DNA of 64,000 nucleotides from Candidatus Marithrix sp. GTDB taxonomy: Bacteria > Pseudomonadota > Gammaproteobacteria > Beggiatoales > Beggiatoaceae. The notes beneath the pieces were generated by a model. The model saw only the letters and a list, made by a program, of their open reading frames with translations. It searched no databases and had not been told where the DNA came from. A program made the translations under genes and the position numbers. The stretch is taken from contig JADGDS010000001.1 of the NCBI GenBank assembly GCA_016744775.1, positions 660,290 through 724,289 on the forward strand. Direction: 5' to 3'. Within the stretch, counting starts at the first letter, position 1; each line of letters opens with the position of its first letter. Positions 3,273 to 58,073 of this stretch are shown here, in pieces.

Positions 3273-4313
3273 TCAAATATAAAAATTCTGTTTTTTTGTA
3301 ATTCCACTACCTAAATTTACGCCAATATCTGTTTTACTATCGATATCTAGGTTATTAAATATTTTATTATCTTTTTGAATTTCTAAAATTTCTTTTTTTA
3401 TAAATTTTTGATCAGGAGTTTTTATAATGATATAGTCTCCTATTTTAATTTTATTATTTTCAATTTCAAAGCATAAAATTGAACCCTTTTTAAAAACCCC
3501 TTTGACATTTACTATTTCAGTACGCAAAAACTGAGTTTCATATTCAAGTTCTTTTTCAACAATAGTTTCAAATATAGCTTTTCCATAGTTTTCCAAAAAT
3601 TCAATATAATTATCAAACTCTGTGATATTTAATATATTATCAATATCTGCGCCATGAGCAATCTCATTTCTACGAATTACAAGATCATCTATTATTGCAA
3701 ATAACTCATCTCCTCTATTTGAAATATTCTTACCAAATTTCTGCTTTAGAAATATAGAAAATTGCTCATTAAGTTTAAGCTTTGTTAGCAATTCAATATC
3801 GAGAGATTTAAAAGCCTCAATTATTTTTGAATGTTTTAGGTTTCCAGATAATGGGGAAAAAGCATCTCTGTTAAGTTTATAGTCGGATGGGTTACTAATA
3901 CAATGGCTTAAGCTAAGTAATAAGTCTTCTTTTGTCAAATGTTCGTATTTGACAAATCTATTCTCATTGACTAATGAAATTAATTTGACAGATAAATCAA
4001 AATTATTTTTGCGGAGTGTGCTGGGTAAGTCATTATAGCTCTTAATAATATTAGGAAGTGTATCAATATGTTCTTGTATCCAAATGCCAATATGTTTTTC
4101 TATTATGCCATATAGTGAAATGATAATAGCTTTATATTCAAATATTTTTTTTGATTTTCCAAAACTATGCAAATGCTCGTTAAATATTTTTAGTGATTGT
4201 TCATTTGAATTTCGAGTGGCAGCCTCAAGCTTATTAGTTAGATCTATATGCTTTATATATTCTTTAACATTATTGATATCATTGAAAAAATGTTGTAATG
4301 AAATATCTTGCAT
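3273..4313 (-). CDS. HEPN-domain protein (Rx4H motif) with a small C-terminal beta-barrel-like domain
   Basis: 346 aa. The helical N-terminal two-thirds contain RRNEIAHG (RNEIAH = Rx4H HEPN signature). The C-terminal ~80 aa (GVFKKGSILCFEIENNKIKIGDYIIIK...ILEIQKDNK...IGVNLG) resemble an EF-Tu-domain-2-like barrel. It lies 8 nt downstream of the DUF262 gene. Confidence 0.6.
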   Translation of the reverse strand: MQDISLQHFFNDINNVKEYIKHIDLTNKLEAATRNSNEQSLKIFNEHLHSFGKSKKIFEYKAIIISLYGIIEKHIGIWIQEHIDTLPNIIKSYNDLPSTLRKNNFDLSVKLISLVNENRFVKYEHLTKEDLLLSLSHCISNPSDYKLNRDAFSPLSGNLKHSKIIEAFKSLDIELLTKLKLNEQFSIFLKQKFGKNISNRGDELFAIIDDLVIRRNEIAHGADIDNILNITEFDNYIEFLENYGKAIFETIVEKELEYETQFLRTEIVNVKGVFKKGSILCFEIENNKIKIGDYIIIKTPDQKFIKKEILEIQKDNKIFNNLDIDSKTDIGVNLGSGITKKQNFYI

Positions 4314-4321
4314 ATTAAAGC

Positions 4322-5512
4322 CTAGTTTATGTATTTCTTAAATAAATTATCAAAATATTCAATTCTGGCTTTAACCTTTGATGGAAGGTTGTTTCTTCCC
4401 TCAAAAAATTTGCTACCATCACTGAAATGTTTCTTATCATATCGCGTATTATTTATCTCTTTTGCATGATGTAATATCTGATATTTTTTACTGATATTGT
4501 TTGCTATTGACTGCATTAATGGATCATAAATTACTTTTTGTGGTTTTGTGAATTGTCTCTCATATGCAGGTGCAATGAATGCTTTTTCACCAAATATTTC
4601 ATAGGCTATTTCAATGCTTTGTGTAAATAAGTTTTCTAATTCAAGTAATGTGCTGTCTGGAAATTGATTTGCTTGTTTTAAATATTCATCTAAGAAATCT
4701 TCAATTGTGCCTGAAAACTTATCTAGAAAACGATAAGCAAAGAATCTTAAAACTAATTCAACATCATCCATTTTTCGATAAGCGTCACTAGTCAATAATT
4801 TTTCTTCTCCATCACTTTCTAATGGAATTTGCCACATTTTTCTAAAATTATCATTCTTTGAAAGTTTTAGACATAATTGATTAAATTTCCCATTGTAAAG
4901 TGCATTTCTTGTTTCTTGGGCTGTTAATTTTTCGCCACCACTATTTAACCTTTCAAAAACAATTTGTTTTAATTCTTCTGCTTCTTCAGGTGTTTTTGCT
5001 GTTTCTTCAAGCAAGATTATTGAAGATATATACCTTCTATCAATTCCTTTTTGTATTTCTACTGGTAATTCATGATACTTTTTACCATCTAACTCTTTCC
5101 AATATTCAAGACTTTCTAAAGCAAAGTTACCACTATAATAATCAACAATTGATGTTAATCTTTGCAATCCATCCATGACTTCAAATTTTGAATAATCATA
5201 CTCGTATAAAAAGATAGGAGGCAGCGGCACATTCATAATAAAAGATTCTATTAATCTAGATTTTCTTCCTTTATCCCAGCGTTTTCTTCTTTGATATTCA
5301 GGGTTTAACTTGTAATCTCCACTATCGATCATGCTTTTTATACTTTTCACAGGATAGCGAGCTTGTTCTGTAACAATACGTATTTCACCTCTTTTATACT
5401 TAGCATTTATGTCTTCATCTGACATGGTTACTATATCTTCATTTATTTTCTTTAATGAGAAAATTTCACCTTCAATTTTTGGCATATTTTTTTGTTCGCT
5501 TTTATTAATCAT
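4322..5512 (-). CDS. DUF262 (ParB-like / GmrSD N-terminal nuclease-NTPase) domain protein
   Basis: 396 aa with the DUF262 hallmarks YQRRKRW and the DGxQR motif (MDGLQRLTS). No DUF1524/HNH half is present. Confidence 0.75.
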   Translation of the reverse strand: MINKSEQKNMPKIEGEIFSLKKINEDIVTMSDEDINAKYKRGEIRIVTEQARYPVKSIKSMIDSGDYKLNPEYQRRKRWDKGRKSRLIESFIMNVPLPPIFLYEYDYSKFEVMDGLQRLTSIVDYYSGNFALESLEYWKELDGKKYHELPVEIQKGIDRRYISSIILLEETAKTPEEAEELKQIVFERLNSGGEKLTAQETRNALYNGKFNQLCLKLSKNDNFRKMWQIPLESDGEEKLLTSDAYRKMDDVELVLRFFAYRFLDKFSGTIEDFLDEYLKQANQFPDSTLLELENLFTQSIEIAYEIFGEKAFIAPAYERQFTKPQKVIYDPLMQSIANNISKKYQILHHAKEINNTRYDKKHFSDGSKFFEGRNNLPSKVKARIEYFDNLFKKYIN

Positions 5513-9705: not shown

Positions 9706-11754
9706 ATGGAAAATTTTAAATCAGCCCTTAAAGCTTTTTCTAAAAAGAAGTTAGATATTCAACAGTTAGCAATTAAGCTTGACATTGTTTTACAAAAAAC
9801 ACCCGCTCGTGCGATGTATTTATTGTCTTATCTACAAGACTTAAAACGAGAAGGAAAAATTTCTTTAGATGATTATTTAGTTCTTAAATCTCGAATTGAG
9901 CCCTTTTATGATAAAACTGTATTAACAGAAGAGCAACCAGCATCAGTAAGTTATTCATCTTCTTCATCTGATACAGATGATAATAGCAATATTAATTCCG
10001 GGCAAACGATTCAAGATGATCATCAATTTCGCCTAGAAACAAAGTTATATTTTGATATTGGAGGTTCTGTCTGGCAAGCTACTGATATTGTTAGACAACA
10101 ATCTGAATACCCTGATAGTTTTGTTAGTATTAAATTTCTGGATGAGAAATTTAAAGAAATGTCAGGTGTATTAAAGGCATTGGTCTATGAATTTCATCGT
10201 TATCAAAGATTGAATCATATTAATATTGCCGCTGCATATCAATTAGCTAAGACGCAAGAACACTTTTTTTTAGTCACAGAATATTTTAAAGGCTTACCAT
10301 TAAAAACGTTTATTGAGAAACACCCAGATGGCATTTTAATGACAGATGCGAAGCCTATTATTATAGCTATGGCTAATGCGCTGGAATATGCTCATAATAA
10401 TAATGTTATGCACTCTGATTTTAATTCAGAAAATGTTTTATATGCGCCTGACAGTCAGCAAATTAAAGTTACTAATTTTGGTATTTCTTATGTTATTAAG
10501 CATCAAAAAGGATCAGGTTTGGATTTTGATCTTCGTGATGATGTTTATGGTTTAGCCTGTGTTACTTATGAGTTATTAAGTGGTAAAAGTGTTGATCAAG
10601 AATCTTTTCAACCCATAAAAAAATTAAATCGAAAACAAAATAAAGCATTACGACATGCTTTAGCTGAGAATGATAGAACCCTTACTGTTAGACAGTTTAT
10701 AGATGAATTCTTTTCTCAGAAACAGAAAAAATCTTCTTCAATGGGAGCGATGATTTTTGGTCTTATGGCTGTAACTCTTGCCGCTGCTGCTGGAAGTATT
10801 TTCCAACCAGTGAAAAAAATTCAAGAATATATGCTGGTTGCCCAAAAAACTTCGATTCCTTCTACGACTGAAAATATAATTTCAGTAGCAGAGCCAAAAC
10901 CAGAACCAATACCAATACCAACTTTACAAGCACGCACACCAGTTGTTAATGAAATTAATCAACAAGAAATTATTAATTTATTGCAAGAGTGCCGATCTTA
11001 TATTAATTCTGATCATCTTACCACTAGTATCCGTGGTGACAAATACACTGCTCTGGCTTGTTATCGACAAGTATTAGAAAATTCACCTAATGATAGTGAA
11101 GCTATTACCGGCTTAAAATACATAGAAAATCGTTATATAAAATGGACTGAAAAATATTTAGATCTACAAAATTTTAGAAAAGCTGGCAGATATATCAAAC
11201 GTTTAGAAGAAGTTAATCCACGTTCACTAGTTCTACTTGATTTAAAACAACGTTTAAAACAAGGTTTTTTAGTTGAAGAAGCGCGTAAAATTGAACAAGT
11301 ACGTAGCACAGAAGAAGCTATGAAACAAGCTCTTCAAAATAATACTGAGATTGATACTCCAGTTAATGTTGAAATTGATATTAGTTCTAAAGAATTATCA
11401 GAAGAAGAAAAACAGAAAGTTACTGAATTACTTACAAAATGTCAAAGATTCTTTAAAATCAAACATTGGACAGCTGGGCGTAATGGTAATGCTGTAGCTT
11501 GTTACAAAGATGTCTTGAAACTAGATTCAACTAATACTGATGCCTTAGATGGAGTTAAAACAATAGAAGCTAAATATTCAGCTTGGATAGAAGCTGCTAT
11601 CAAAACTAAAAGATTTAAAAAGGCAGAACGTTTATTAAGACGCATGAAAAAAATCAATTCTGCAACTGCAAAGAATTTGAAACAGCATCTGGCAGAGGAA
11701 CGTAAAAAATATTTAGAAGAAAAAGCTTTAACTGAAACTTTTGTTAATGAATAG
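9706..11754 (+). CDS. membrane-anchored Ser/Thr kinase-like protein (probable pseudokinase) with two C-terminal TPR/Sel1-like repeats
   Basis: Kinase-fold signatures are VSIK, LVTEY, HSDFNSEN (for HRDxKxxN) and NFG (for DFG). A TM segment (GAMIFGLMAVTLAAAAG) follows, then two homologous ~110-aa helical repeats. Confidence 0.7.
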   Translation: MENFKSALKAFSKKKLDIQQLAIKLDIVLQKTPARAMYLLSYLQDLKREGKISLDDYLVLKSRIEPFYDKTVLTEEQPASVSYSSSSSDTDDNSNINSGQTIQDDHQFRLETKLYFDIGGSVWQATDIVRQQSEYPDSFVSIKFLDEKFKEMSGVLKALVYEFHRYQRLNHINIAAAYQLAKTQEHFFLVTEYFKGLPLKTFIEKHPDGILMTDAKPIIIAMANALEYAHNNNVMHSDFNSENVLYAPDSQQIKVTNFGISYVIKHQKGSGLDFDLRDDVYGLACVTYELLSGKSVDQESFQPIKKLNRKQNKALRHALAENDRTLTVRQFIDEFFSQKQKKSSSMGAMIFGLMAVTLAAAAGSIFQPVKKIQEYMLVAQKTSIPSTTENIISVAEPKPEPIPIPTLQARTPVVNEINQQEIINLLQECRSYINSDHLTTSIRGDKYTALACYRQVLENSPNDSEAITGLKYIENRYIKWTEKYLDLQNFRKAGRYIKRLEEVNPRSLVLLDLKQRLKQGFLVEEARKIEQVRSTEEAMKQALQNNTEIDTPVNVEIDISSKELSEEEKQKVTELLTKCQRFFKIKHWTAGRNGNAVACYKDVLKLDSTNTDALDGVKTIEAKYSAWIEAAIKTKRFKKAERLLRRMKKINSATAKNLKQHLAEERKKYLEEKALTETFVNE

Positions 11755-13880: not shown

Positions 13881-14239
13881 TTCAACGTAATATTGATTAT
13901 GCAGAAATTCAGCGTAAACCAGAATTATTTCCCTTAATACGTTATTTAGTTGACACTATTCCTGAGCAACATTACCTAATTTTAGGAAGTGCATCACGAG
14001 ATTTAATTCGGCAAAGTTCAGAAACTCTTGCTGGTAGAATTTCTTACTATACCCTGTTAGGTTTGAGAACAATGGATATTAATTCTGACCAAATAGAACA
14101 ATTATGGTTCACAGGAGGCTTACCTTCTTCATTTTTAGCCGCAGATGATGCTATAAGTTATCAATGGCGCGAAGATTACATTAGAACCTTTCTGGAACGG
14201 GATATTCCAGCAGAGACTTACAGGCTATTTTATTTATAA
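13874..14239 (+). pseudogene. internal fragment of a COG1373-type AAA ATPase (DUF4143 family)
   Basis: The 121 aa (LILGSASRDLI...LAGRI...WFTGGLPSSF...YIRTFLERDI) match the middle of the family represented intact at 58074-59387. Walker A and the C-terminal domain are missing. Confidence 0.6.
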
Positions 14240-16350
14240 TGCAAAACCAACAAATTCTCATCAACCACTGAAGGTGGTAAATTTTGATTAAAGCTAGGCA
14301 CTTTATTTTCTAATACCACTTTAATTGCATCATTTGGGCGATAATAGGTGGATTTATATTTGTTGATACTTGTAACTTTATTGTTTTTAAGTCTCACATT
14401 TATATATTTTTCACCTATAATTGAAGTATTATAATAACCCTTTCCTGTTAATGTTACCCATTGATTATTTTTAAAAGTTACCATTTGTGCTATTTCTTTA
14501 CCGCTTGCAGTTTCCCATAAGCGTATAGTGCCGTCAGCACTGGCTGATAATATCAATTTGCCATTCGGAGAAAAACTCACAGATTCAACAAAAGAAGAAT
14601 GCCCTTTAAAACTACGGATTAAACGTCCATTTTTGATATTCCATAATTTTATGCTTTGATCTCTACTGCCAGATAACGCCATTTTACCATCAGGAGAAAA
14701 TGCTACCTGATTGATAGGACTTATATGCAAATTAAAATTACGAATTAAACGCTTTTGCTTAATATTCCATAATTTCATAGTGTTATCAGAACCACCAGAT
14801 AAAGCCATTTTACCATCAGGAGAAAATGCTACACTATTTACACCATAACTATGATCCCGAAAAGTAGTAATTAAACCCCCTGTATAAAGATCCCAAAGTT
14901 TTATAGTATGATCATCACTTGCGGATAATGCTTTGGTTCCATCAGGAGAAAATTTAATGCTATTTATAGTTTTACGATGTCCATATAAAGTGTGAATTAT
15001 ATCTCCTGTCTTAACATTCCATAACATAATACTTTTATCTAAACTAGCTGATAAAATAGTTTTTCCGTTTGGAGCAAATGCAACGCTATTTACCCAAGAA
15101 GCATGAGCCTCGAAGCTACGTATTAAATAACCATCTTTAATTGACCATAATTTTATCGTGTCATCCCAACTTCCAGATAACGCCATTTTACCATCAGGAG
15201 AAAAGGCAACTGCTTTTATAGGTAAAAAATGTCCATAAAACTTTTTCACCAGATTACCACTTTCAAGAGACCATAGTCTTAGTGTTTTATCTATACCACC
15301 AGATAATGCAAACTTACCATTAGGGGAAAAGGCAATCGCATTAACTGCTTTGGTTTTACCTTTAAATTCCCGAATTAATCGTTCACTATTAACAGCCCAT
15401 AATTTAATCTTTTTATCCGAACCAGCAGATAAAACAGTTTTACCATTTGGTGAAAATGTAACGCTATTTACCCAAGATTCATGTCCATTAAAAGTGTGAA
15501 TTAATCGCCCACTATTCACATTCCATAATTTCATGGTTTCATCAACACTGCCAGATAAAACCGTTTTGCCATCAGGCGAAAAGGCTACACTATTTACCCA
15601 GAAACTGTGCCCTTTAAAGCTACGAATTAAACGTAATCGTTTAAGATCCCATAATTTAACTGTATTATCCCAAGCACCAGATACAGCCATATTACCATCA
15701 GGAGAAAATTTTATATCTTGTATATATGATGTATGTGCCTGAAAATTATGCAATAATTTTCGTCTATTAATATCCCATAATTTGATTGTTTGATCCCAAC
15801 TCGCAGATAAAGCTCTTTTTCCATTAGGGGAAAATGCAACCGCTGTAACATTCCACGAATGTCCATAAAATGTACGTATTACACGCCCTGTTTTAATATT
15901 CCATAATTTAATAGTTTTATCATAGCTGCCAGTTAATATAGTTTTTCCATTAGGAGAAAAAGCGACACTACTAACATGTTTTAAATGCCCCTTAAAAGTA
16001 CGAATTAAACTTCCATCATTCAAATTCCACAATTTAACTGTTCTATCTGAACTAGCAGATGCTAGTATTTTAGCATTAGGAGAAATAGCGATACTTTCTA
16101 TTGATTCACTATGTGCATGAATCTTACGAATCAAACGCGCTGTTTTCATATCCCATAATTTAATGGTTTGATCATCACTAGCTGATATTACTTGTTTGCC
16201 ATCTGGTGTAAAAATTACATGATTTATATCACCAACATGCCCTAATTGTAATAAGAGTTTATTTATTGCTTGGTCGGCATATAAATAATTTATTGAATTA
16301 ATTAGTATTAATATATGTATTATGCTTATGGAAATATTTTTATAAAACAT
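14230..16350 (-). CDS. secreted WD40-repeat protein (about 14 blades, two propellers) with a ~90-aa C-terminal domain
   Basis: 706 aa with a signal-like N-terminus. It has ~14 consecutive ~42-aa units of the form GH...V.SVAFSPDGK...SGS.D.TIKLWN. Confidence 0.85.
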   Translation of the reverse strand: MFYKNISISIIHILILINSINYLYADQAINKLLLQLGHVGDINHVIFTPDGKQVISASDDQTIKLWDMKTARLIRKIHAHSESIESIAISPNAKILASASSDRTVKLWNLNDGSLIRTFKGHLKHVSSVAFSPNGKTILTGSYDKTIKLWNIKTGRVIRTFYGHSWNVTAVAFSPNGKRALSASWDQTIKLWDINRRKLLHNFQAHTSYIQDIKFSPDGNMAVSGAWDNTVKLWDLKRLRLIRSFKGHSFWVNSVAFSPDGKTVLSGSVDETMKLWNVNSGRLIHTFNGHESWVNSVTFSPNGKTVLSAGSDKKIKLWAVNSERLIREFKGKTKAVNAIAFSPNGKFALSGGIDKTLRLWSLESGNLVKKFYGHFLPIKAVAFSPDGKMALSGSWDDTIKLWSIKDGYLIRSFEAHASWVNSVAFAPNGKTILSASLDKSIMLWNVKTGDIIHTLYGHRKTINSIKFSPDGTKALSASDDHTIKLWDLYTGGLITTFRDHSYGVNSVAFSPDGKMALSGGSDNTMKLWNIKQKRLIRNFNLHISPINQVAFSPDGKMALSGSRDQSIKLWNIKNGRLIRSFKGHSSFVESVSFSPNGKLILSASADGTIRLWETASGKEIAQMVTFKNNQWVTLTGKGYYNTSIIGEKYINVRLKNNKVTSINKYKSTYYRPNDAIKVVLENKVPSFNQNLPPSVVDENLLVLHYK

Positions 16351-23349: not shown

Positions 23350-23355
23350 TGTATA

Positions 23356-23449
23356 AAATCCCCCCTAGCCCCCCTTTTATTAAAGTGGGGGATTATCAAA
23401 TAATACGATTTCCTCCCCCTTTATTAAAGGGGGGTAGGGGGGGATTTTA
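23356..23449. repeat. composite poly-C/poly-G palindromic element (repeat family 3)
   Basis: AAAATCCCCCCTAGCCCCCCTTTT ... AAAGGGGGGTAGGGGGGGATTTT, with internal CCCCCTTT/AAAGGGGG hairpins. Relatives lie at 34745-34782, 38834-38896 and 26005-26031. Confidence 0.75.
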
Positions 23450-23459
23450 GGAGAAAATT

Positions 23460-23828
23460 ATGACTTCAATGCAACCATATTTATTACGTGCTGTACATGA
23501 ATGGATTACTGATAATGATTTTACAGCATATATATTAGTGAATGCGGATTACGAGGGCTGTGAAGTACCTCGTGAATATGTTGATAATGGTAATATTATT
23601 TTAAATATTTCCACAACAGCGGTAGAAAATTTAGTATTAGATAATGATTCGGTGGATTTCAATGCTAGATTTTCAGGGCAACAAATGAATGTATCTATTC
23701 CGATACCAGCAGTTTTAGCAATTTATGCACAAGAAAATGGCAAAGGTATGTCATTTCAAGCTGAGCCTGAAGAAAAGAAGGAAGTATCTCCACCGCCAAA
23801 AAAACCAACACTTACATTGGTTGAATAA
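23460..23828 (+). CDS. sspB: ClpXP adaptor / stringent starvation protein B
   Basis: The N-terminus MQPYLLRAVHEWITDN matches the SspB family. The tail is acidic/Pro-rich. Confidence 0.8.
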   Translation: MTSMQPYLLRAVHEWITDNDFTAYILVNADYEGCEVPREYVDNGNIILNISTTAVENLVLDNDSVDFNARFSGQQMNVSIPIPAVLAIYAQENGKGMSFQAEPEEKKEVSPPPKKPTLTLVE

Positions 23829-24126
23829 AACCGGGCATCTCCAACATTTCTAAGGAGATGCCACGCATCAACACCCTTCCCGTCTGACGCTGATTATTAC
23901 CATCGTCAAATTCAAATTGATATAGTCTTTGTATTATTAATTTACCATTATTATTACGTTTTAAACCCATTCGTACTAATGCAATAGTATCATCTAATAA
24001 TTGTAGTTTCAATTCTCTACAGGTTTGTTTACAAATAAGTTTTGCCCTTTCACGAGATTTTAATGTGTCAAGCCAAAACCATGTTATAATACTGATTAAT
24101 AATAGTAATATTATTGTTGTTATCAT
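23812..24126 (-). CDS. DUF3301 family membrane protein
   Basis: 104 aa with an N-terminal TM segment, then WFWLDTLKSRERA...LQLLDDTIAL...YQFEF, as in DUF3301. Confidence 0.65.
   Translation of the reverse strand: MITTIILLLLISIITWFWLDTLKSRERAKLICKQTCRELKLQLLDDTIALVRMGLKRNNNGKLIIQRLYQFEFDDGNNQRQTGRVLMRGISLEMLEMPGFIQPM
24020..24126. repeat. direct repeat copy A (5' end of the DUF3301 gene)
   Basis: 24024-24085 matches 25341-25402 with 1 mismatch in 62 nt. Weaker similarity continues to the start codon. Confidence 0.85.
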
Positions 24127-24159: not shown

Positions 24160-24180
24160 GGAGTTCAAACTTTGAACTCC
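24160..24180. repeat. GGAGTTCAAA-C-TTTGAACTCC hairpin (repeat family 2)
   Basis: Perfect 10-bp arms. Relatives lie at 25167-25188, 26038-26060, 27647-27680 and 38316-38337. Confidence 0.75.
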
Positions 24181-24221
24181 TGAATTAAAAATATGTCAGA
24201 TTAGTTAATAAGGAGTTTGTA

Positions 24222-25124
24222 ATTTTTAAAAACCTTTCAATTATTATATTTTTAGCCGCTGTGATTAGTGGTTGTAATGATGATGATGGTGCTGGTGATT
24301 CGCCGGTTATTGATTTAATAAAATCTCAATCAGAGAAAAATTCACAGAAAATAGCTGATTTACAAGTTCAGTTATCTGAGCAATTAGAAAAAATTCAAAC
24401 AAATACTTTTGTTGCTGGTAAAGTCTTTCGCGATAAGTTAAAGGATGGTAGCTTTGCTCCAGAGATGGTTATGATTGCTGGTGGTTCTTTTAGAATGGGT
24501 GATATTCAAGGTGGTGGCAGGGATAATGAACAGGCAGTGCATTATGTTTTGGTTGATAGGTTTGCTATGGGGAAATATGAAGTTACCTTTGCTGAATATG
24601 ATAAGTTTGCTGAAGCTACTGGTAGAGAAAAGCCTAGTGATAGTGGTTGGGGGCGCGGTAATCGTCCAGTAATTAATGTTTCTTGGAATGATGCTACTGC
24701 CTATACAAAATGGCTTAGTGATCAAACTGGTAAGCAATATCGTTTGCCTACTGAAGCTGAGTGGGAATATGCAGCTAGAGCTGGTACGGATACTAAGTAT
24801 TGGTGGGGTAATGAGATTGATGGCAGTAAAGCAAATTATAACCAGAATCTTGGTAAAACTTCTTCAGTGGGAAATTATAAAGCTAATAAATTTGGTTTAT
24901 ATGATACTTCAGGAAATGTATGGGAATGGACATGTTCTGAATTTGAAGATAAATATAATGGTAAAGAAAAACAATGTGTTACGAATGCAAGCAATTTATC
25001 CTTTCGTGGCGGCTCGTGGAACAGCGGCGCGAGGGTTGTGCGCTCGGCTAACCGCTACTGGAACACGCCGACTGACCGCAGCCTCTACGTGGGCTTTCGG
25101 GTGTTAAGACTCGTAACCCTTTAA
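24222..25124 (+). CDS. lipoprotein with a formylglycine-generating-enzyme / C-type-lectin fold (SUMF1-like) domain; candidate DGR target
   Basis: FGE-sulfatase family motifs (MVMIAGGSFRMG, INVSWNDA, RLPTEAEWEYAAR, GNVWEWT, RGGSW...GFRV). The track start is GTG 24261, which would cut a lipoprotein signal. The in-frame upstream sequence after AAGGAG reads (ATT)FKNLSIIIFLAAVISGC. Confidence 0.75.
   Translation: MFKNLSIIIFLAAVISGCNDDDGAGDSPVIDLIKSQSEKNSQKIADLQVQLSEQLEKIQTNTFVAGKVFRDKLKDGSFAPEMVMIAGGSFRMGDIQGGGRDNEQAVHYVLVDRFAMGKYEVTFAEYDKFAEATGREKPSDSGWGRGNRPVINVSWNDATAYTKWLSDQTGKQYRLPTEAEWEYAARAGTDTKYWWGNEIDGSKANYNQNLGKTSSVGNYKANKFGLYDTSGNVWEWTCSEFEDKYNGKEKQCVTNASNLSFRGGSWNSGARVVRSANRYWNTPTDRSLYVGFRVLRLVTL
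25005..25103 (+). other. candidate DGR variable region (VR) at the gene 3' end
   Basis: By hand count about 67/99 nt are G+C and about 14/99 are A, against AT-rich flanks. It encodes RGGSWNSGARVVRSANRYWNTPTDRSLYVGFRV, and the variable-position codons are mostly NNC. Confidence 0.55.
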
Positions 25125-25166
25125 ACTTTATCACTTTTACCATTTTTTTTGAGTATTTATGGAATT

Positions 25167-25306
25167 TGGAGTTCAAAGCGGAGCTTTGTTTTTGTGGATA
25201 GGGGTTTATAGCTATATACAACAACTACAGGGATTGCACCGCAGGGATAAATATTCTTAACTAACAAGAAAATCCCTGTTAAAATGCAATCCCTGTAGTT
25301 TTTTTT
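25167..25306 (+). mobile_element. ~140-nt MITE-like / small-RNA-like repeat, copy 1
   Basis: More than 90% identical by eye to 38316-38452. It contains a family-2 hairpin, TTGTGG-N15-TATATA, then a 27-bp-arm hairpin (CTACAGGGATTGCA...TGCAATCCCTGTAG) followed by a T-run. Confidence 0.7.
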
Positions 25307-25336
25307 CTACACGTTCGGCATTACGTTCTTGTTATA

Positions 25337-25440
25337 CAGCTTTGTTTACAAATAAGTTTTGCCCTTTCACGATATTTTAATGTGTCAAGCCAAAACCATG
25401 TTCCAAGGTTTATTATTAACAATAATAACTGAAATGAATT
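25337..25440 (-). pseudogene. orphan duplicate of the DUF3301 gene 5' end (direct repeat copy B)
   Basis: The reverse strand reads ..LLLLIINLGTWFWLDTLKYRERAKLICKQS, against the intact gene's LLLLISIITWFWLDTLKSRERAKLICKQT. There is no in-frame ATG and similarity ends abruptly. Confidence 0.8.
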
Positions 25441-25482
25441 ATTATATAGTTTTTTTCATCTTTTATAAAAGGAATATTCTTC

Positions 25483-25998
25483 ATGAAAACCAAAATATAT
25501 TTAGTCAGCAGTATAGTATTAGGTTTTACAATAAGTGTTGCAGCAGTTGCTGAACCTAAAACTAAACGTTTATTAGAAGCTTTTGATGTTAATCAAGATG
25601 GTTCTATGACAACATCTGAAGTGAAACAAGTTTTAACTAAACGTTTCAAAGCTAATGATAGCGATGGTGATGGATTTTTAAATTTCAATGAAACCGTAGC
25701 TGCTTATGAACAAGCAAAACAAGAACGTGCAGTAAAACGTTTTAATAAGATTGATCAAAATGGAGATGGTACAGTAACACTAAATGAATTTTTAACTACA
25801 GTCAAAAAATATTCTGCTTATAAACAGAAACTTATTCAACATAGATTTACAAAAAAAGATAAAAATAATGATGAATTAGTTTCATTAACTGAATTTACTA
25901 AGCCATTACCATTTTTTGATCATTTTGATTTTAATAAAGATAATGTAATTTCCTTAGAAGAAATTACAAGTAAGTTTAATCATCATCATCATAAGTAA
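25483..25998 (+). CDS. secreted EF-hand calcium-binding protein
   Basis: Signal peptide and five DxDxDG-type loops (DVNQDGSMTTSE, DSDGDGFLNFNE, DQNGDGTVTLNE, DKNNDELVSLTE, DFNKDNVISLEE). AGGA lies 8 nt upstream of the ATG. Confidence 0.8.
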   Translation: MKTKIYLVSSIVLGFTISVAAVAEPKTKRLLEAFDVNQDGSMTTSEVKQVLTKRFKANDSDGDGFLNFNETVAAYEQAKQERAVKRFNKIDQNGDGTVTLNEFLTTVKKYSAYKQKLIQHRFTKKDKNNDELVSLTEFTKPLPFFDHFDFNKDNVISLEEITSKFNHHHHK

Positions 25999-26037
25999 GT
26001 TCCTTAGCCCCTCCAGCCCCATTTAGGGGCTTAAATT

Positions 26038-26060
26038 GCAAAGCTCCGCTTTGTACTCCA
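26038..26060. repeat. family-2 half element (GCAAAGCTCCGCTTTGTACTCCA)
   Basis: Shares GCTTTGTACTCCAG with 27667-27681. Confidence 0.6.
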
Positions 26061-26107
26061 GATTTGTTGTTATCTAACATCCTCTCCAAAATAAAGAAGT
26101 TTTAATC

Positions 26108-27643
26108 ATGAAAAAATTTTTCAACACTGCTGGAGCTTGTGTGCCAGAAAAGCATTATATGCTAACTAACGATGTTAGTAATATGAAAAAATTGATTGAC
26201 AATGAACGTTATTTCATTCTACACGCTCCACGTCAAACTGGTAAAACCACCTTAATGTTGCAATTGATGGAACAAATCAACAAAGAAGATAAATATATTG
26301 CACTATATGTAAATGTAGAAGTAGCACAAGCGTGGCGTAATAATGTTATCGAAGTTAATAATACAATTGTTAATCAGTTCCGTATTCAAACTGAAATATC
26401 TTTACCAAAACAATATCAACCATCAGCGGCTTGTTTTGAAAATATAGGTAATGAATTTTCATTATTCTTAATACGATGGTGTTTAGAACTTTCAAAACCC
26501 TTAATAGTATTTATGGATGAAGTAGATGCACTAATTGGTGATGGCTTAATATCAGTATTACGCCAATTACGTAGCGGCTATACTCAACGCCCACGCGCCT
26601 TTCCTCATGCTTTATGTATGATCGGATTACGAGATATTCGAGATTATAGAATCTATTCCGACTCATCACAGCGTTACATAGTTGGAGGTTCAGCTTTCAA
26701 CATAAAAGAAAAATCAATTCGCCTACAAGATTTTACCTATGAACAAGTAAAAGAATTATACGCACAACACACAGCGGCAACTGGTCAAAATTTTACTCAC
26801 CATGCACTACAAAGAGTTTTTGAACTAACCCAAGGGCAACCGTGGCTAGTAAATGCTTTGGCTAGAGAATTATGTTTTGATGATTATGCAATACCGTGGG
26901 AACAAACAATTACTAAAGAAGACGTAAATAATGCCGCAGAAATTTTAATCAAACGTCGCGATGTACATTTAGATCAACTAGCAGACAAATTGACAGAACC
27001 AAGAGTAGAACGGGTTATTCAATCAATATTAATTGGCGAAGAAGTAGAAAATACCAATCTGAATGAAGATAAACAATACTTAATTGACTTAGGATTAATT
27101 CGTTCCGGAGAACAAGGCTTAGAAATAGCCAATCCAATTTATCGCGAAGTCATTCCAAGAGAATTAACAGCTTACCGTCAAGATATGTTAGGACAAAATC
27201 CTCAATGGTATGTAAAAGAAGACGGAAAACTAGATATTCAGAAAGTATTAGAAGCTTATATAGAATTTTATAAAGAGCATAGCGAACTAGTAACCAAACG
27301 AAAAACCTATACTGAAGCAGCACATCACTTATTATTTATGGCATGGCTACAAAGAATAGTAAATGGAGGCGGCTATATTAGTCGAGAATACGCCGCTGGT
27401 TTAGGGCGAGTAGATTTATGTATTGATTTTGCTGATGAAAGATTTGCTTTTGAATTAAAACTAAGCGGCAAAAAAGCCTTAACAGAAGGAATAAAACAAC
27501 TAATAAACTACTTAGATAGACTAAGCTTAGACAGCGGCTGGTTGATAATTTTTAATCGTAAGACAGTTGAAGACTGGGATAAAGTAGGTGAAAGACAAAT
27601 TGTGGAAGAAAAAGGCAAAAGGATTGAGGTTATTTGGTTATAA
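26108..27643 (+). CDS. AAA+ ATPase with a C-terminal PD-(D/E)XK-type nuclease motif
   Basis: Walker A (HAPRQTGKTT), Walker B (VFMDEVD) and a C-terminal GRVDLCIDF...FAFELKL (D...ExK) motif. Confidence 0.7.
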   Translation: MKKFFNTAGACVPEKHYMLTNDVSNMKKLIDNERYFILHAPRQTGKTTLMLQLMEQINKEDKYIALYVNVEVAQAWRNNVIEVNNTIVNQFRIQTEISLPKQYQPSAACFENIGNEFSLFLIRWCLELSKPLIVFMDEVDALIGDGLISVLRQLRSGYTQRPRAFPHALCMIGLRDIRDYRIYSDSSQRYIVGGSAFNIKEKSIRLQDFTYEQVKELYAQHTAATGQNFTHHALQRVFELTQGQPWLVNALARELCFDDYAIPWEQTITKEDVNNAAEILIKRRDVHLDQLADKLTEPRVERVIQSILIGEEVENTNLNEDKQYLIDLGLIRSGEQGLEIANPIYREVIPRELTAYRQDMLGQNPQWYVKEDGKLDIQKVLEAYIEFYKEHSELVTKRKTYTEAAHHLLFMAWLQRIVNGGGYISREYAAGLGRVDLCIDFADERFAFELKLSGKKALTEGIKQLINYLDRLSLDSGWLIIFNRKTVEDWDKVGERQIVEEKGKRIEVIWL

Positions 27644-27646
27644 GTT

Positions 27647-27680
27647 TGGAGTTCAAAGCGAAGCTTTGCTTTGTACTCCA
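27647..27680. terminator. family-2 hairpin TGGAGTTCAAAGC...GCTTTGTACTCCA
   Basis: Imperfect long hairpin between two convergent genes. Confidence 0.6.
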
Positions 27681-49133: not shown

Positions 49134-50279
49134 TTATCTGGCTAATATACATTTAAATTGTTCTTGTTCAATATCATTGATAAATTCAACATTTGAAGTA
49201 ATGCTTAATATTCTTTTGATACCACTGCCTCTACCACTATAATGCAATACATATTTTGCAATAGAATTTAAAATAGGGTTTCTGTGTATTGATATGCCCC
49301 TTTTAATTTTTTCAACAGTTAGAGAATTTGTTAATTTTCCCGGATTTATGATTTCTATTCTATCATCAAACATAAAAATATTAATAGGAGCATTAATATA
49401 GTAATCTCTATGAACCAAAGCATTAATGATAAGTTCACTAATCACTATCTCATCTATTTCTAATTTTCCATTAGAATTAAAATCTTTTTCTACTTGATAC
49501 CTTCTTAAATGACTTACAATAAACCTTAAACTATCTTCATAAAGTGTTTTAAGAGATCCTTTTATTCTAGCTTCTGATAAATATTGATTAGAAGATATGT
49601 CATCACCAATAAAATAAACACAATCTACATAAAATGATGGGCAAAATTTTTGGGTTAAGATTCCAAAAATTAGATTTCCTGCTAATGTTAAATGATTATT
49701 TTTTATCACCCCATAATTCTCTAAAATAGTTTCTAATTTCAAGTCACCATTTTTTAGATTGTCATATATATTTCTATCTTCAGTTGCCAAAAATTGATAA
49801 AAAAACTCTATATTCAAATCTGTAATATCTGTAGCTTTTAATTCTTCTTCATCTGCATAAAGTTTTTTAGATTCTGCAAAAAGTCTTCTTAACTCTTCTG
49901 ACGATACTTTTCTTTTATCACTTCCTGCTTTGGTGATATATAAGCCTTTATTGGTAGCGTATGGTTTATTCATACCCTCATCAACTTCAATAATTAATAT
50001 TTTTTTAGCCGCTATTTCTTCTATCTTTACAAGTGGATAAATAGGAGGATTTATATTTGCATTAATAACATTTCCAATCAATTGATTTAATCTTCTAATA
50101 TCATGATCATTTAAACCAACAATATTGCCGCCATCATCCACTCCAATAATTAACCAACCACCTTTGGCATTTGAAAAAGCAACAAACTCTTCGGCTAATT
50201 TATCACTATTTGTAATATTTACTTTAAACTGTGTATAACTATCTTCACCAAGTGAAATTCTTTTTTGTAAATCCTTCAT
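49134..50279 (-). CDS. AlbA_2 (Schlafen-like) + HATPase_c_4-type ATP-binding protein, copy 1
   Basis: EDSYTQFKVN...AFSNAKGGWLIIGVDDGGNIVG (AlbA_2) and a C-terminal ...ELIINALVHRDY... region. The start was set at the internal Met 1 nt after the upstream stop; the track start is 50393. Confidence 0.65.
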   Translation of the reverse strand: MKDLQKRISLGEDSYTQFKVNITNSDKLAEEFVAFSNAKGGWLIIGVDDGGNIVGLNDHDIRRLNQLIGNVINANINPPIYPLVKIEEIAAKKILIIEVDEGMNKPYATNKGLYITKAGSDKRKVSSEELRRLFAESKKLYADEEELKATDITDLNIEFFYQFLATEDRNIYDNLKNGDLKLETILENYGVIKNNHLTLAGNLIFGILTQKFCPSFYVDCVYFIGDDISSNQYLSEARIKGSLKTLYEDSLRFIVSHLRRYQVEKDFNSNGKLEIDEIVISELIINALVHRDYYINAPINIFMFDDRIEIINPGKLTNSLTVEKIKRGISIHRNPILNSIAKYVLHYSGRGSGIKRILSITSNVEFINDIEQEQFKCILAR

Positions 50280-50280
50280 A

Positions 50281-51318
50281 TTAACTAGCAGTTTTAGTTT
50301 CAAAAGCCCCTTTAAGTGAAGACATAACTTCACGACGTATTTCTTTGAAGCGTGGTTTTTCGTCTTCCATAAATGGTAATGGGCGACAAGCATTCATTGC
50401 ATGAATACCAAGTCGTGCCGTTAATATGCCCGCACCTAAACCTTGTGCGATTTGAGTTGACATCACTGATAATACTGAACCACCTATAATTTCAGCAGTT
50501 CCATCGGCAACTGTTTCACTTACATCAGCATAAATTAGATTTTGTATCACCGTAAGCATTAAACTCATTGAACCGAAAAATCCCGGTTTACCATTATAAA
50601 GTGTAGCAATTTGTCTAATCATACGCACATTACGCCATAAAGTTAATATCGTATCTATTAAAGCTATTTGACTGATCATAACAAATAAGGCTGTTTCTTT
50701 AGAAGATTTGGTAACTATTTGATATGCTTGTTGATCTATATCGTGCATAACTTGTTTAGAAAATAAGGCATAGATTTCGCGATCATGATGGCTGTCATTA
50801 ATGCTTATATAAAAACGATCTAAACGATTTCTAAAACTTAAATCTTCACTATAAAATAATCCTATTTTATTTAAATACGCTTTAGCGTTACCATAAGCAT
50901 TATTTGTAATAATTTTCTGCCCCTCTTGTTGTAAATTTGAAACAGTGCGTAATGTACGTATTTTTTGAATAGCTTGCCAAGTTAATGTTAAACTAGCTCC
51001 AGATATAATAATTATTAAAAATAAAAATACTGTACCTAGTATAAAATTATTATCATATTGTTCTACGATAAAATTATAACTATCCACTAATAGCATTAAA
51101 GTTAATAATCCACCTAATGAGGCTGCTAACCACAACCAAGCAGAATGTTTTGAAACGACAGGAATCGAGTTGGTGATTCTATCTTCATGCGATTGATCGG
51201 TTTCTAACTGAATATCATCTGGTAAAATGACTGGTGGAGTATAATCTAAGGTAACTTTTGCCTCATCTTCAACAGTAATTTCTACTTTATCTACATCAAA
51301 ATAAATTGCTGTACTCAT
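50281..51318 (-). CDS. YcjF-like membrane protein (UPF0283/DUF697)
   Basis: 345 aa with an acidic N-terminus, two central TM segments and a conserved C-terminal region (GILTARLGIHAMNACRPLPF). Confidence 0.6.
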   Translation of the reverse strand: MSTAIYFDVDKVEITVEDEAKVTLDYTPPVILPDDIQLETDQSHEDRITNSIPVVSKHSAWLWLAASLGGLLTLMLLVDSYNFIVEQYDNNFILGTVFLFLIIIISGASLTLTWQAIQKIRTLRTVSNLQQEGQKIITNNAYGNAKAYLNKIGLFYSEDLSFRNRLDRFYISINDSHHDREIYALFSKQVMHDIDQQAYQIVTKSSKETALFVMISQIALIDTILTLWRNVRMIRQIATLYNGKPGFFGSMSLMLTVIQNLIYADVSETVADGTAEIIGGSVLSVMSTQIAQGLGAGILTARLGIHAMNACRPLPFMEDEKPRFKEIRREVMSSLKGAFETKTAS

Positions 51319-56852: not shown

Positions 56853-58067
56853 TCATTTCCAAAGAGTAACTTTAACATAATCTTCAGTTACCTCAAAATC
56901 GACTTCTGTACCATTATGTTCTTTCATTAACGGAATAATCTTGCGACGTATCCCCATGCCGCGATTATCCATAAAATTATAATCTCGTAAAATATTAGTT
57001 ATAATCGGATTACGTGGAAAACGTTGCCCAGCTTTCATTTTTTCTATAGTCATACTATTAGCTAATCCGCCCGGGCTAGTTATTTCAAGGCGATTGGCAT
57101 AAATGTTCAAATTAACTTTATTAGGATTAGTCCAATCTCTATGAGCAAAGGCATTGACAATTAGTTCTCGAATAACAGCTTTGGGATAATCCCAACACCG
57201 TATTCGTCTCATAGAAACTAAACGCTCTTCAGAAATATAAGGTTGTAAATAATACAAAACTCTATCTGGTAAACTATATTCCAATACATCACGATGATTA
57301 ATAGCACTAGTTAATCCAGTAAACGGTATATTTAATATTTCATCTAAGCTAGCATCATAATCCATTTCCTTTCCAGAAAAAACTAATAAATGAATACCAG
57401 CTTGTGGTATTCCATAACAAGGCTGCTTACCAAACAAGGATAAACCAGTGATTGTGCATACTGGCGTACCAAATTCAGTTGCTACCATGAGATCAAGATT
57501 TTGTAATTTTTGATGCCAAGCTTCTTCTGAACTAGGAATTTCATCATCTTCAATAATATCAACTAAATATTGTTCTAAGCGTCGCTTATCTAATTGATCA
57601 AAACCGCGCCCTGATATAGGTAAAGATTCAGCATGTAATAAGCCACCTGTTTGAAATAAACGTAATTGTTGTTCTCTACTTGCCAAACGACTACTGCTAC
57701 CAAAACGAATATAAACATCTTCACGATCATTATGCCTTACTACATAAGGCTTAGTAGTGCCCATACCAACAGTCAGCACAGCTACCTTTTTACCATCATC
57801 CATGATAAGCTCTTCATAAAAAGGTATAATCTGTGGATGGATAAAACGACCAAATACAGTATCCATCAACCAATCTTGCAAATTTTCTCGTTGTATGCCA
57901 GATATACTACCATCATCTTCTACACCGAGTAATATTCTCCCACCTTGAAAATTAGCAAATGCTACAATTTCCTTAGCTAATTGTTCAGGGCGTAAATTAT
58001 CACGTTTAAATTCAACATTATAATTTTCCCCGTTGCTGATTATATTCAATAATTCTTTGTGATTCAT
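56853..58067 (-). CDS. AlbA_2 (Schlafen-like) + HATPase_c_4-type ATP-binding protein, copy 2
   Basis: GENYNVEFKRD...AFANFQGGRILLGVEDDGSISG, and a C-terminal ELIVNAFAHRDW... region. Same architecture as 49134-50279. Confidence 0.7.
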   Translation of the reverse strand: MNHKELLNIISNGENYNVEFKRDNLRPEQLAKEIVAFANFQGGRILLGVEDDGSISGIQRENLQDWLMDTVFGRFIHPQIIPFYEELIMDDGKKVAVLTVGMGTTKPYVVRHNDREDVYIRFGSSSRLASREQQLRLFQTGGLLHAESLPISGRGFDQLDKRRLEQYLVDIIEDDEIPSSEEAWHQKLQNLDLMVATEFGTPVCTITGLSLFGKQPCYGIPQAGIHLLVFSGKEMDYDASLDEILNIPFTGLTSAINHRDVLEYSLPDRVLYYLQPYISEERLVSMRRIRCWDYPKAVIRELIVNAFAHRDWTNPNKVNLNIYANRLEITSPGGLANSMTIEKMKAGQRFPRNPIITNILRDYNFMDNRGMGIRRKIIPLMKEHNGTEVDFEVTEDYVKVTLWK

Positions 58068-58073
58068 AATTAT

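What the first reader, a model, noticed from the sequence alone, without database searches (positions are those of the whole stretch)
25005..25103. Possible DGR variable region at the 3' end of an FGE/C-type-lectin-fold lipoprotein gene, with no template repeat or RT in the window
The last ~33 codons of the 24222-25124 gene switch abruptly from AT-rich codons to GC-rich ones. By hand count about 67 of 99 nt are G/C and only about 14 are A, while the flanks are about one-third G+C. The encoded peptide is RGGSW-NSGA-RVV-RSANR-YWNT-P-TD-R-SLYV-GFRV. This fits the conserved scaffold (GGSW..A...RSA.R....P..R....GFR) that, as I recall, frames the hypervariable residues of CLec/FGE-type DGR target proteins. 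Most of the non-scaffold codons are NNC (aac agc ggc tac aac gac agc ctc tac), as expected if they derive from AAC codons by adenine-specific mutagenesis. I found no A-rich near-copy of this patch and no reverse-transcriptase ORF in the 64 kb. If real, this is a remote target of a DGR located elsewhere.
Basis: partly seen in the sequence, partly recalled or inferred. Interest (0 to 1): 0.75.

Follow-up and report, generated by a model that had tools for sequence, protein, structure and literature searches.

The report
DGR variable region, template not found
The GC-rich 99-base patch is the hypervariable tip of a surface-lipoprotein gene that was written by a diversity-generating retroelement located outside this window; this is a known kind of system, and this copy shows mild signs of decay.

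Summary
Window 25005-25103 has 67 G/C and 14 A in 99 nt and is the most GC-rich 99-nt stretch in a 33.6% GC window. The same peptide back-translated with local codon usage gives 45.8±2.6 G/C.

The patch ends an FGE-sulfatase-fold (C-type-lectin-like) lipoprotein gene, 24222-25124. Ten related VRs share its A-free scaffold codons nucleotide for nucleotide. They come from at least five genomes, including Marithrix and Parabeggiatoa. They differ almost only at codon positions 1 and 2 of NNC/NGG codons: 14, 11 and 1 hypervariable columns at positions 1, 2 and 3. The upstream 120 nt shows the normal pattern. This is the signature of adenine-specific DGR mutagenesis of AAC/AGG codons.

The inferred template, RGGSWNNNARNVRSANRNRNTPTNRNNNVGFR, matches real TRs of other DGRs. 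A conserved DNA motif follows every VR.

No TR or RT is in the window. The source genome is not in any searchable DNA collection, so its TR and RT remain unlocated.

This copy has an ATT where orthologues have ATG, three synonymous C/G→T changes and a degenerate 3′ motif, so it may be decaying.

Verdict: a new member of a known kind, of moderate interest.

The parts
24222..25124 (+). DGR target gene: a lipoprotein with an FGE-sulfatase (C-type-lectin-like) domain. It has 300 codons and begins at ATT.
   Evidence: Pfam PF03781, E 2.7e-55, aa 79-296. PDB sequence hits are PvdO, FGEs and T. denticola TvpA 2Y3C at 3e-15. Orthologues P0002 and P0004 start MFKNISII... with ATG at the aligned codon.
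24210..24215 (+). Shine-Dalgarno sequence AAGGAG, 6 nt before the ATT at 24222
   Evidence: Read from the sequence. It is conserved in L002 ahead of the ATG.
24222..24275 (+). Lipoprotein signal peptide (M/I)FKNLSIIIFLAAVISGC, with the lipobox Cys at codon 18 (24273-24275)
   Evidence: Translation. The same N-terminus is present in P0002, P0004 and P0103.
25005..25103 (+). Variable region (VR), 33 codons: A-free scaffold codons with NNC/NGG variable codons
25089..25102 (+). GC-rich 14-mer GTGGGCTTTCGGGT at the 3' end of the VR. It is IMH-like and is where TR-VR homology ends. The family consensus is GTGGGCTTCCGGGT.
   Evidence: Alignment A3. TR ORFs of other DGRs diverge from the VR right after GFRV.
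25104..25141 (+). Conserved 3' DNA motif TTAAGACTCGTAACCCTTTAAACTTTATCACTTTTACC, spanning the stop codon at 25122-25124. It is a candidate target-recognition element. The first part is degenerate in this copy: TTAAGA where the consensus has TCCAGG.
   Evidence: It occurs once in the window and once after the VR(s) in 11 of the 15 loci held then. It is conserved whether coding or not.
25174..25188 (+). Small terminator-like hairpin CAAAGC-GGA-GCTTTG followed by a T run. It is part of a repeated GGAGTTCAAAGC element.
   Evidence: D2, I3.
25224..25311 (+). Long hairpin followed by T8, probably the transcription terminator of the gene
   Evidence: Inverted repeat I5. DNA fold z-score -4.0.
24160..24180 (+). 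Upstream hairpin GGAGTTCAAA-C-TTTGAACTCC. It belongs to the same repeat family as the downstream element and is conserved upstream of the orthologue in L002.
   Evidence: (I20).

Best explanation
Window 25005-25103 is the variable region of a target gene of a diversity-generating retroelement.

The gene encodes a lipoprotein, presumably exported and lipid-anchored at the cell envelope (inferred from its signal peptide). Its C-terminal FGE-type C-type-lectin fold presents about 13 variable residues on a fixed scaffold.

Inferred mechanism, following the DGR paradigm: a reverse transcriptase encoded elsewhere copies a GC-rich template repeat into cDNA. The repeat carries adenines only where variation is wanted. 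The inferred template is CGC GGC GGC TCG TGG AAC AAC AAC GCG AGG AAY GTG CGC TCG GCT AAC CGC AAC AGG AAC ACG CCG ACG AAC CGC AAC AAC AAC GTG GGC TTC CGG, which encodes RGGSWNNNARNVRSANRNRNTPTNRNNNVGFR. The transcriptase misincorporates opposite adenines, and the cDNA overwrites the VR up to the GC-rich 14-mer at its 3' end. That is why a 68% GC, A-poor patch sits with sharp edges in a 36% GC gene.

Shown here: the composition anomaly, the fold, the family-wide adenine-position variation, the conserved 3' DNA motif, and the absence of TR and RT from the window.

Inferred: a cognate TR and RT exist or existed elsewhere in this genome and act in trans, and the 3' motif is the homing signal.

Whether this copy is still being rewritten is open. 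It carries several small lesions that suggest it may not be.
For: 1. Composition. 67/99 G+C against 45.8±2.6 expected for the same peptide. All scaffold codons are A-free (p about 2e-4). All 14 A lie in variable codons.

2. Variation pattern. Ten unique VRs of the same subfamily were compared. They come from GCA_054015915.1, metagenome Ga0256847, Marithrix, Parabeggiatoa and the source sample series. Hypervariable columns (3 or more bases) number 14, 11 and 1 at codon positions 1, 2 and 3. The third-position C of 12 NNC codons is invariant. Five VRs differ from the inferred TR only at inferred adenines. The window VR has 14 of 17 differences at adenines.

3. Control. Pairwise difference per codon position is 0.127/0.171/0.237 in the 120 nt upstream and 0.329/0.234/0.060 in the VR.

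4. Real templates. Short ORFs called over genuine TRs of other DGRs read RGGSWNNNARN[CV]RSANRNRNTPTNRNNNVGFRV. The window peptide differs from these only at N and R(AGG) positions. L016 and L017 show such TRs next to DGR RTs.

5. Paralogue. A paralogue without a VR (L002:124-1677) encodes the same fold segment with AT-rich codons.

6. Other targets. Other targets in the same sample series and in relatives are also scattered, with no DGR-type RT within 10 kb. Remote targets and trans diversification are described in the literature (PMC10907252).

7. A conserved DNA motif follows every VR.
Against: No TR and no DGR RT were found for this genome. None is in the window. The source MAG is absent from the searchable DNA collections. 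Pattern scans of the genome, metagenome and viral collections found only other VRs.

No sequence variants of this protein exist in the 15-billion-protein collection. It forms a singleton 90% cluster and is identical on 2-3 contigs. There is therefore no direct evidence of diversification at this locus.

The window VR has 3 non-adenine differences from the family-inferred TR, all synonymous C/G→T. It also has 4 deviations in otherwise (nearly) invariant columns of the 3' motif and ATT in place of the orthologous ATG.

The inferred TR is a consensus reconstruction, not an observed sequence.
Confidence: 0.85

Rival explanations
1. Relic VR. The patch was written by a DGR in the past, but this copy is no longer a working target, or the DGR has been lost from this genome. 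The sequence is frozen and slowly drifting towards AT. This is a sub-case of the best explanation and differs only on present activity.
For: ATT replaces the ATG used by orthologues. Three private or semi-private synonymous C/G→T changes lie inside the VR, whereas five related VRs have none. TTT replaces TTC in the GC-rich 14-mer, and TTAAGA replaces the nearly invariant TCCAGG in the 3' motif. The protein is identical in 2-3 independent contigs and has no variants at 90% identity or above.
Against: The patch is still 68% GC with sharp edges, and the reading frame is intact. ATT can serve as a weak start codon. One of the T changes (third base of GTT) is shared with another target of the same sample series (CTT in L008), and CGT is shared with L010. 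Some of these changes may therefore simply reflect this genome's own TR. Consensus assemblies hide minority variants.
Confidence: 0.35
2. Not DGR-related. The patch is the ordinary conserved C-terminal motif of the FGE-sulfatase fold, and its GC richness comes from horizontal transfer or from gene conversion among paralogues.
For: The peptide scaffold RGGSW..AR..RSA.R..GFR also occurs in non-DGR proteins: PvdO 5HHA and PorK/GldK. The FGE-domain bodies of these paralogues are also similar at the DNA level, with 55-87% identical codons at identical residues.
Against: Gene conversion or transfer does not explain several findings. Variation sits at codon positions 1 and 2 while position 3 is frozen. 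Adenines are excluded from all scaffold codons. The variable codons collapse to AAC/AGG and reproduce real TR sequences. The non-VR paralogue uses AT-rich codons for the same fold segment.
Confidence: 0.04
3. The patch is itself a template repeat, or a TR-like donor, embedded in a gene.
For: It is the only copy in the window, and its 3' flank is conserved.
Against: Only 14 of the 28 inferred template adenines are A here. The variable codons are a mix (AGC, GGC, GTT, TAC, TGG, GAC, CTC) like the other VRs, not AAC/AGG runs. The patch lies at the C-terminus of an FGE-fold ORF, as VRs do.
Confidence: 0.01

Closest known systems
Treponema denticola TvpA (PDB 2Y3C), a DGR variable protein with the FGE-type C-type-lectin fold
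   Same: It has the same fold family, with a direct sequence match of E 3e-15 over aa 166-294. The VR is at the C-terminal end of the domain. From my own knowledge, TvpA is also a lipoprotein.
   Different: TvpA lies beside its DGR cassette, whereas here no TR or RT is within 64 kb. The host here is an AT-rich, RuBisCO-encoding (probably autotrophic) bacterium whose targets most resemble those of the sulfur-oxidising Beggiatoaceae. The VR stands out as a GC island.
Remote or trans-diversified CLec targets of clade-5 DGRs in multicellular bacteria: Thiohalocapsa PB-PSB1, Marithrix, Thiomargarita (Doré et al. 2024, PMC10907252)
   Same: Many FGE/CLec targets are scattered around the genome away from any RT. 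Marithrix targets share this VR's scaffold nucleotide for nucleotide. Some family members are fused to Peptidase_C14 or kinase domains.
   Different: This target is a small stand-alone lipoprotein, not a STAND-, kinase- or caspase-linked sensor. Diversification at this locus is not shown. The RT clade is unknown because the RT was not found.
Legionella pneumophila LdtA, a DGR-diversified surface lipoprotein (Arambula et al. 2013; cited from my own knowledge)
   Same: It is a lipobox lipoprotein with a C-terminal CLec-fold VR, presumably displayed on the cell surface.
   Different: LdtA is encoded in cis within a DGR on a genomic island and uses a TAT signal. Its VR scaffold sequence is different.
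Bordetella phage BPP-1 Mtd/Brt, the DGR prototype
   Same: The logic is the same: AAC-rich TR, adenine mutagenesis, VR at the C-terminus of a CLec fold, and a GC-rich element marking the 3' limit of information transfer (IMH).
   Different: No BPP-1-like hairpin lies a few bases after the VR. Instead a pyrimidine-rich motif, TAACCCTTT..TTTATCACTTTTACC, is conserved. The element is cellular rather than viral, with no hits in IMG/VR.

Membership tests
DGR variable region / target gene | A cognate template repeat: a near-identical copy whose differences from the VR fall at TR adenines | not testable with these tools
   Within the window this was tested and no copy with 45 or fewer mismatches in 99 exists on either strand. 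The source genome is not in genome contigs; even the VR itself is not found there. Scans of the metagenome and viral collections found only other VRs. The TR is inferred from 10 related VRs only.
DGR variable region / target gene | A DGR-type reverse transcriptase encoded in the same genome | not testable with these tools
   No RVT_1 hit in the window's scanned ORFs of 110 aa or more. An RT search seeded with a real DGR RT (L016) returned 6675 hits, none on a contig of this MAG among the 120 listed.
DGR variable region / target gene | The VR lies at the C-terminal end of a C-type-lectin / FGE-sulfatase fold | tested here: met
   PF03781 E 2.7e-55, aa 79-296 of 300. PDB hits include TvpA 2Y3C. 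No structure was predicted.
DGR variable region / target gene | Substitutions among related VRs are confined to template-adenine positions (AAC→NNC), with non-adenine positions fixed | tested here: met
   Hypervariable columns number 14, 11 and 1 at codon positions 1, 2 and 3. Five VRs have 0 non-A differences from the inferred TR; the window VR has 14 of 17 at A. The upstream control shows the opposite codon-position pattern.
DGR variable region / target gene | Adenines are excluded from the codons of invariant residues | tested here: met
   All 18 scaffold codons are A-free, p about 2e-4 given local codon usage.
DGR variable region / target gene | An IMH-type GC-rich element at the VR 3' end plus a nearby downstream hairpin/cruciform (BPP-1 paradigm) | tested here: inconclusive
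   The GC-rich 14-mer is present with one deviation (TTT for TTC). A different, pyrimidine-rich motif is conserved downstream. No hairpin lies within a few bases; the first is about 50 nt after the stop codon and looks like a terminator.
DGR variable region / target gene | Hypervariability of the locus within a population | tested here: inconclusive
   The protein is a singleton 90% cluster and is identical on 2-3 contigs. No read data are available.
Formylglycine-generating enzyme (catalytic FGE/SUMF1) | The catalytic cysteine pair in the C-terminal segment (Cys336/Cys341 in human FGE; from my own knowledge) | tested here: not met
   The last 45 residues contain no cysteine. The protein has the fold but is not filed as an enzyme.
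Bacterial lipoprotein | An N-terminal signal peptide ending in a lipobox with Cys | tested here: met
   (M/I)FKNLSIIIFLAAVISGC, with Cys at codon 18. It is shared with P0002 and P0004. It depends on initiation at ATT 24222. The nearest canonical start, GTG 24261, would remove the signal peptide.

The most novel reading that the evidence does not exclude
The motif GGCTTCCGGGTnTCCAGGCTnGTAACCCTTTnnnnTTTATCACTTTTACC follows every VR of this family in at least five genomes, whether or not it is translated. It could be a hairpin-less homing signal that lets one RT/TR pair rewrite many scattered targets in trans. On that reading, the window copy, with four deviations in otherwise (nearly) invariant columns (one in the GC-rich 14-mer, three in the first part of the motif), would be a natural example of a target that has dropped out of the system.
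Probability: 0.3. Interest if true: 0.6.

Novelty: new member of a known kind. Interest (0 to 1): 0.4.

Why it matters
This adds an uncultured, AT-rich, RuBisCO-encoding (probably autotrophic) bacterium to the list of hosts that diversify FGE-fold surface or sensor proteins with DGRs.

It also shows that in AT-rich genomes a VR can be spotted from composition alone, as a sharp GC-rich, A-poor island at a gene's 3' end.

The more useful by-product is the conserved DNA motif downstream of all VRs of this family. How a DGR finds remote targets is poorly understood, and this motif is a concrete, testable candidate for the recognition signal.

The window copy offers a natural comparison: an apparently degenerating target set against intact ones.

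Tried and rejected
1. An adenine-tolerant pattern of the VR was scanned against genome contigs and gave 0 hits; not even the VR was found, so the genome is not in that collection. The first three bases (CGT) later proved variable among targets, so the pattern may also have been too strict.

2. A scaffold pattern with N at the variable codons was scanned against the genome, viral and metagenome collections. It found only four more VRs, all from Ga0256847, and no TR. The pattern also missed the Marithrix VRs, which have AAG at one codon, so it was not fully general.

3. Ten look-ups of contigs carrying homologous targets found no DGR-type RT within 10 kb of any of them. The only RT seen was a group II intron RT.

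4. A protein search with the predicted TR translated in four frames found TR ORFs of other, GC-richer DGRs but none from this lineage.

5. An RT search seeded with the RT of L016 gave too many equally distant RTs. The most AT-like candidate, P0250 (L017), belongs to an unrelated 48% GC genome with a different TR.

6. The supplements of Doré et al. list the Marithrix and Thiomargarita RT gene ids but hold no sequences for them.

7. I expected the VR scaffold to be far better conserved than synonymous sites of the gene body. Codon identity did not show this: about 81% in the scaffold against 55-87% in the body. The per-position analysis did show third positions four times less divergent in the VR.

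8. Rfam has no family in the region.

Full report
OBSERVATION. The patch is real and extreme. Window 25005-25103 has C 30, G 37, T 18 and A 14, which is 67.7% G+C. The rest of the gene is 35.8% GC and the window is 33.6%. It is the most GC-rich 99-nt stretch in the 64 kb, and no other stretch reaches even 55 G/C. I back-translated the same 33 residues 100,000 times with the window's own codon usage. This gave 45.8±2.6 G/C, with a maximum of 57, and 22.5±2.8 A. The composition is therefore a property of codon choice, not of the peptide. All 18 codons of the scaffold residues lack adenine (p about 2e-4), and all 14 adenines sit in the other codons.

THE GENE. ORF 24222-25124 matches Pfam FGE-sulfatase (E 2.7e-55, aa 79-296). 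Its solved relatives by sequence are PvdO, formylglycine-generating enzymes and the Treponema denticola DGR variable protein TvpA (2Y3C, 3e-15). The last 45 residues contain no cysteine, so the catalytic cysteine pair of true FGEs (known from the literature) is absent. The protein has the fold but is not the enzyme. The N-terminus, FKNLSIIIFLAAVISGC, is a lipoprotein signal with a lipobox. It is a signature of the fold and is not diagnostic for DGRs on its own.

NO TR OR RT IN THE WINDOW. No stretch on either strand matches the patch with 45 or fewer mismatches in 99. Pfam annotation of the window's long ORFs found no reverse transcriptase (for 14.3-35.1 kb; for ORFs of 110 aa or more elsewhere).

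FAMILY EVIDENCE THAT THE PATCH IS DGR-WRITTEN. The protein has thousands of homologues. The closest are from Beggiatoaceae (Marithrix, Thiomargarita, Parabeggiatoa) and unnamed AT-rich relatives, and some are fused to Peptidase_C14 or kinase domains. Their C-termini keep the scaffold and are hypervariable in between.

At the DNA level, targets from several sources carry the same A-free scaffold codons nucleotide for nucleotide. These sources are NCBI GCA_054015915.1, JGI metagenome Ga0256847, Marithrix and Parabeggiatoa, plus further contigs of the source sample series. In each case the scaffold sits in an otherwise AT-rich gene.

In ten unique VRs of the subfamily, columns with three or more bases number 14, 11 and 1 at codon positions 1, 2 and 3, and the third-position C of 12 NNC codons never changes. 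The 120 nt upstream behave normally, with pairwise differences of 0.127/0.171/0.237 at positions 1/2/3. The VR is inverted, at 0.329/0.234/0.060. Collapsing the hypervariable columns to A gives RGGSWNNNAR(N/K)VRSANRNRN(T/K)PTNRNNNVGFR. Five VRs differ from this only at inferred adenines, and the window VR does so at 14 of 17 positions.

A search with the translated inferred template found short ORFs that gene callers had placed over genuine TRs of other DGRs. They read RGGSWNNNARN[CV]RSANRNRNTPTNRNNNVGFRV. Two of these loci were fetched and show the expected cassettes: RT-TR-target in L016 and avd-RT-TR in L017. Their DNA is not cognate to the window VR, with 16 non-A mismatches. A paralogue without a VR (L002:124-1677) encodes the same fold segment with AT-rich codons. 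That shows what the segment looks like when no DGR writes it.

A CONSERVED DNA MOTIF AFTER EVERY VR. The sequence GGCTTCCGGGTnTCCAGGCTnGTAACCCTTTnnnnTTTATCACTTTTACC follows the variable codons in 14 targets from at least five genomes. There are 22 invariant and 11 nearly invariant columns in about 55. Its core occurs once in the window and, in the other loci, only directly after VRs. In some targets TAACCCTTT is translated as VTL-stop, and in others the TAA is the stop codon itself. The conservation is therefore at the DNA level. TR ORFs of other DGRs diverge from VRs right after GFRV. This places the 3' limit of copied information at the GC-rich 14-mer (25089-25102), as with the IMH of the Bordetella phage paradigm. 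No hairpin lies immediately downstream; the first one, at 25174-25188, looks like a terminator. I infer that the motif is the target-recognition signal for trans homing. This is untested.

STATE OF THIS COPY. Five observations bear on it.
- Orthologues P0002 and P0004 begin MFKNISII with ATG. The window has ATT at the aligned codon behind the same Shine-Dalgarno sequence. The next canonical start, GTG 24261, would delete the signal peptide.
- The VR has three non-adenine differences from the family template, all synonymous C/G→T: CGT, ACT and TTT. CGT is shared with L010. The T of GTT is shared with CTT in L008, another target from the same sample series. Part of this may therefore reflect the genome's own TR.
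- The window deviates at four otherwise (nearly) invariant columns of the aligned 3' end: one in the GC-rich 14-mer (TTT for TTC) and three in the first part of the motif (TTAAGA for TCCAGG).
- The protein is a singleton cluster and is identical on the 2-3 contigs that carry it.
- Taken together, these fit a target that is no longer being rewritten, or is rewritten only rarely. None of them is decisive.

THE HUNT FOR THE COGNATE TR AND RT. The window comes from ENA ERZ28566607 scaffold_1 (430 kb), and the gene also lies on a 919-kb NCBI contig. That genome is not in the GTDB-representative DNA collection. Pattern scans of the JGI metagenomes and IMG/VR found only other VRs or nothing. Ten look-ups around homologous targets found no DGR RT within 10 kb. 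This fits the scattered-target architecture reported for Marithrix, Thiomargarita and Thiohalocapsa (PMC10907252). An RT-seeded protein search was too crowded to pick out this genome's RT. The question 'is there a TR and RT in this genome?' is therefore unanswered rather than answered in the negative.

COMPARISON AND VERDICT. This is a DGR target of the well-known FGE/CLec class. It is closest structurally to TvpA and closest in architecture to the remote targets of cellular DGRs in Beggiatoaceae-like bacteria. It is a new member of a known kind. I give 0.85 confidence that the patch is DGR-written, and about 0.35 that this copy is now a relic. Two points go beyond routine: the compositional island as a detection cue in AT-rich genomes, and the conserved 3' motif as a candidate trans-homing signal.

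Noticed in passing
window 24222-24224: The target gene starts with ATT where the orthologues (L002:10001, P0004) have ATG, behind an identical AAGGAG Shine-Dalgarno sequence. This is either a rare ATT start or a start-codon lesion. Public gene calls use GTG 24261 and so lose the lipoprotein signal.
   Followed up: yes
window 24018-24086 and 25335-25403: A 69-nt direct repeat (2 mismatches) brackets the target gene. The left copy is the 5' end of the intact DUF3301 gene (23812-24126, minus strand). The right copy is a truncated pseudo-copy (..TWFWLDTLKYRERAKLICKQSCITRT*). This points to an insertion or rearrangement that placed the target gene here.
   Followed up: partly
window 25196-26103, compared with L002:11371-11530: In GCA_054015915.1 the orthologous target is followed after about 160 nt by the AAA_35 ATPase gene, which is 90% identical to window 26104-27521. 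The window has an extra 0.9 kb between them. This segment holds a long hairpin, the DUF3301 pseudo-copy and an EF-hand gene (25483-25998).
   Followed up: partly
window 24160-24180, 25166-25188, 26039-26059 (inverted), 27645-27679; also L002, L003, L005, L008: A repeated hairpin element GGAGTTCAAAGC..GCTTTGAACTCC (REP- or terminator-like) flanks the target gene, the EF-hand gene and the AAA_35 gene, and recurs next to targets in related genomes.
   Followed up: partly
L002:11218-11300, L003:11204-11270, L005, L006, L008:11350-11420: A second conserved module of about 100 nt lies downstream of some targets but not the window's: TTTAGAATCTnGTTTCTTTTTCTGnTTAGTTTnnGCTAATnAGAATTTnTTAGCGTGGAAGC. It includes an 8-bp hairpin. 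Its function is unknown.
   Followed up: no
L002:124-1677 (minus strand): A Peptidase_C14-FGE paralogue whose C-terminal fold segment (RGGSWDSKRKITNSNRAKW..GFRV) is encoded by AT-rich codons. It is an undiversified counterpart of the VR.
   Followed up: partly
L006:3129-4754 (Ga0256847_1005432): A Peptidase_C14-FGE target with a 1-nt frameshift just upstream of its VR, so the VR is read out of frame. This is either a pseudogene or an assembly error.
   Followed up: no
L008:11219-11314 (same sample series, scaffold_68): This VR shares the window's scaffold, but its middle part differs by a codon insertion, a codon deletion and non-adenine changes. This implies a second TR variant in the same community or genome.
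   Followed up: partly
L008:3862-5757: A group II intron reverse transcriptase (RVT_N, RVT_1, GIIM, HNH) lies 4 kb from a target gene. It is not a DGR RT.
   Followed up: no
proteins P0121-P0150: Public gene calls over DGR template repeats yield short spurious 'FGE-sulfatase' proteins (..RGGSWNNNARNCRSANRNRN..). These are an annotation artefact that can be used to find TRs by protein search.
   Followed up: yes
window 3273-5512, 9706-11754, 14230-16350, 26108-27643, 49134-50393, 56853-59387: The window is rich in conflict- or defence-type genes: HEPN RiboL-PSP, GmrSD, a Ser/Thr kinase with TPR, a 14-repeat WD40 protein, AAA_35, two SLFN/AlbA_2-HATPase_c_4 proteins, and AAA_14-DUF4143. This is typical of Beggiatoaceae-like genomes.
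   Followed up: no
window 23354-23449: A 39-nt inverted repeat rich in C and G runs lies between the cytochrome c1 gene and sspB. It is probably a bidirectional terminator. It gave only weak, sub-threshold Rfam miRNA matches, which are chance.
   Followed up: no
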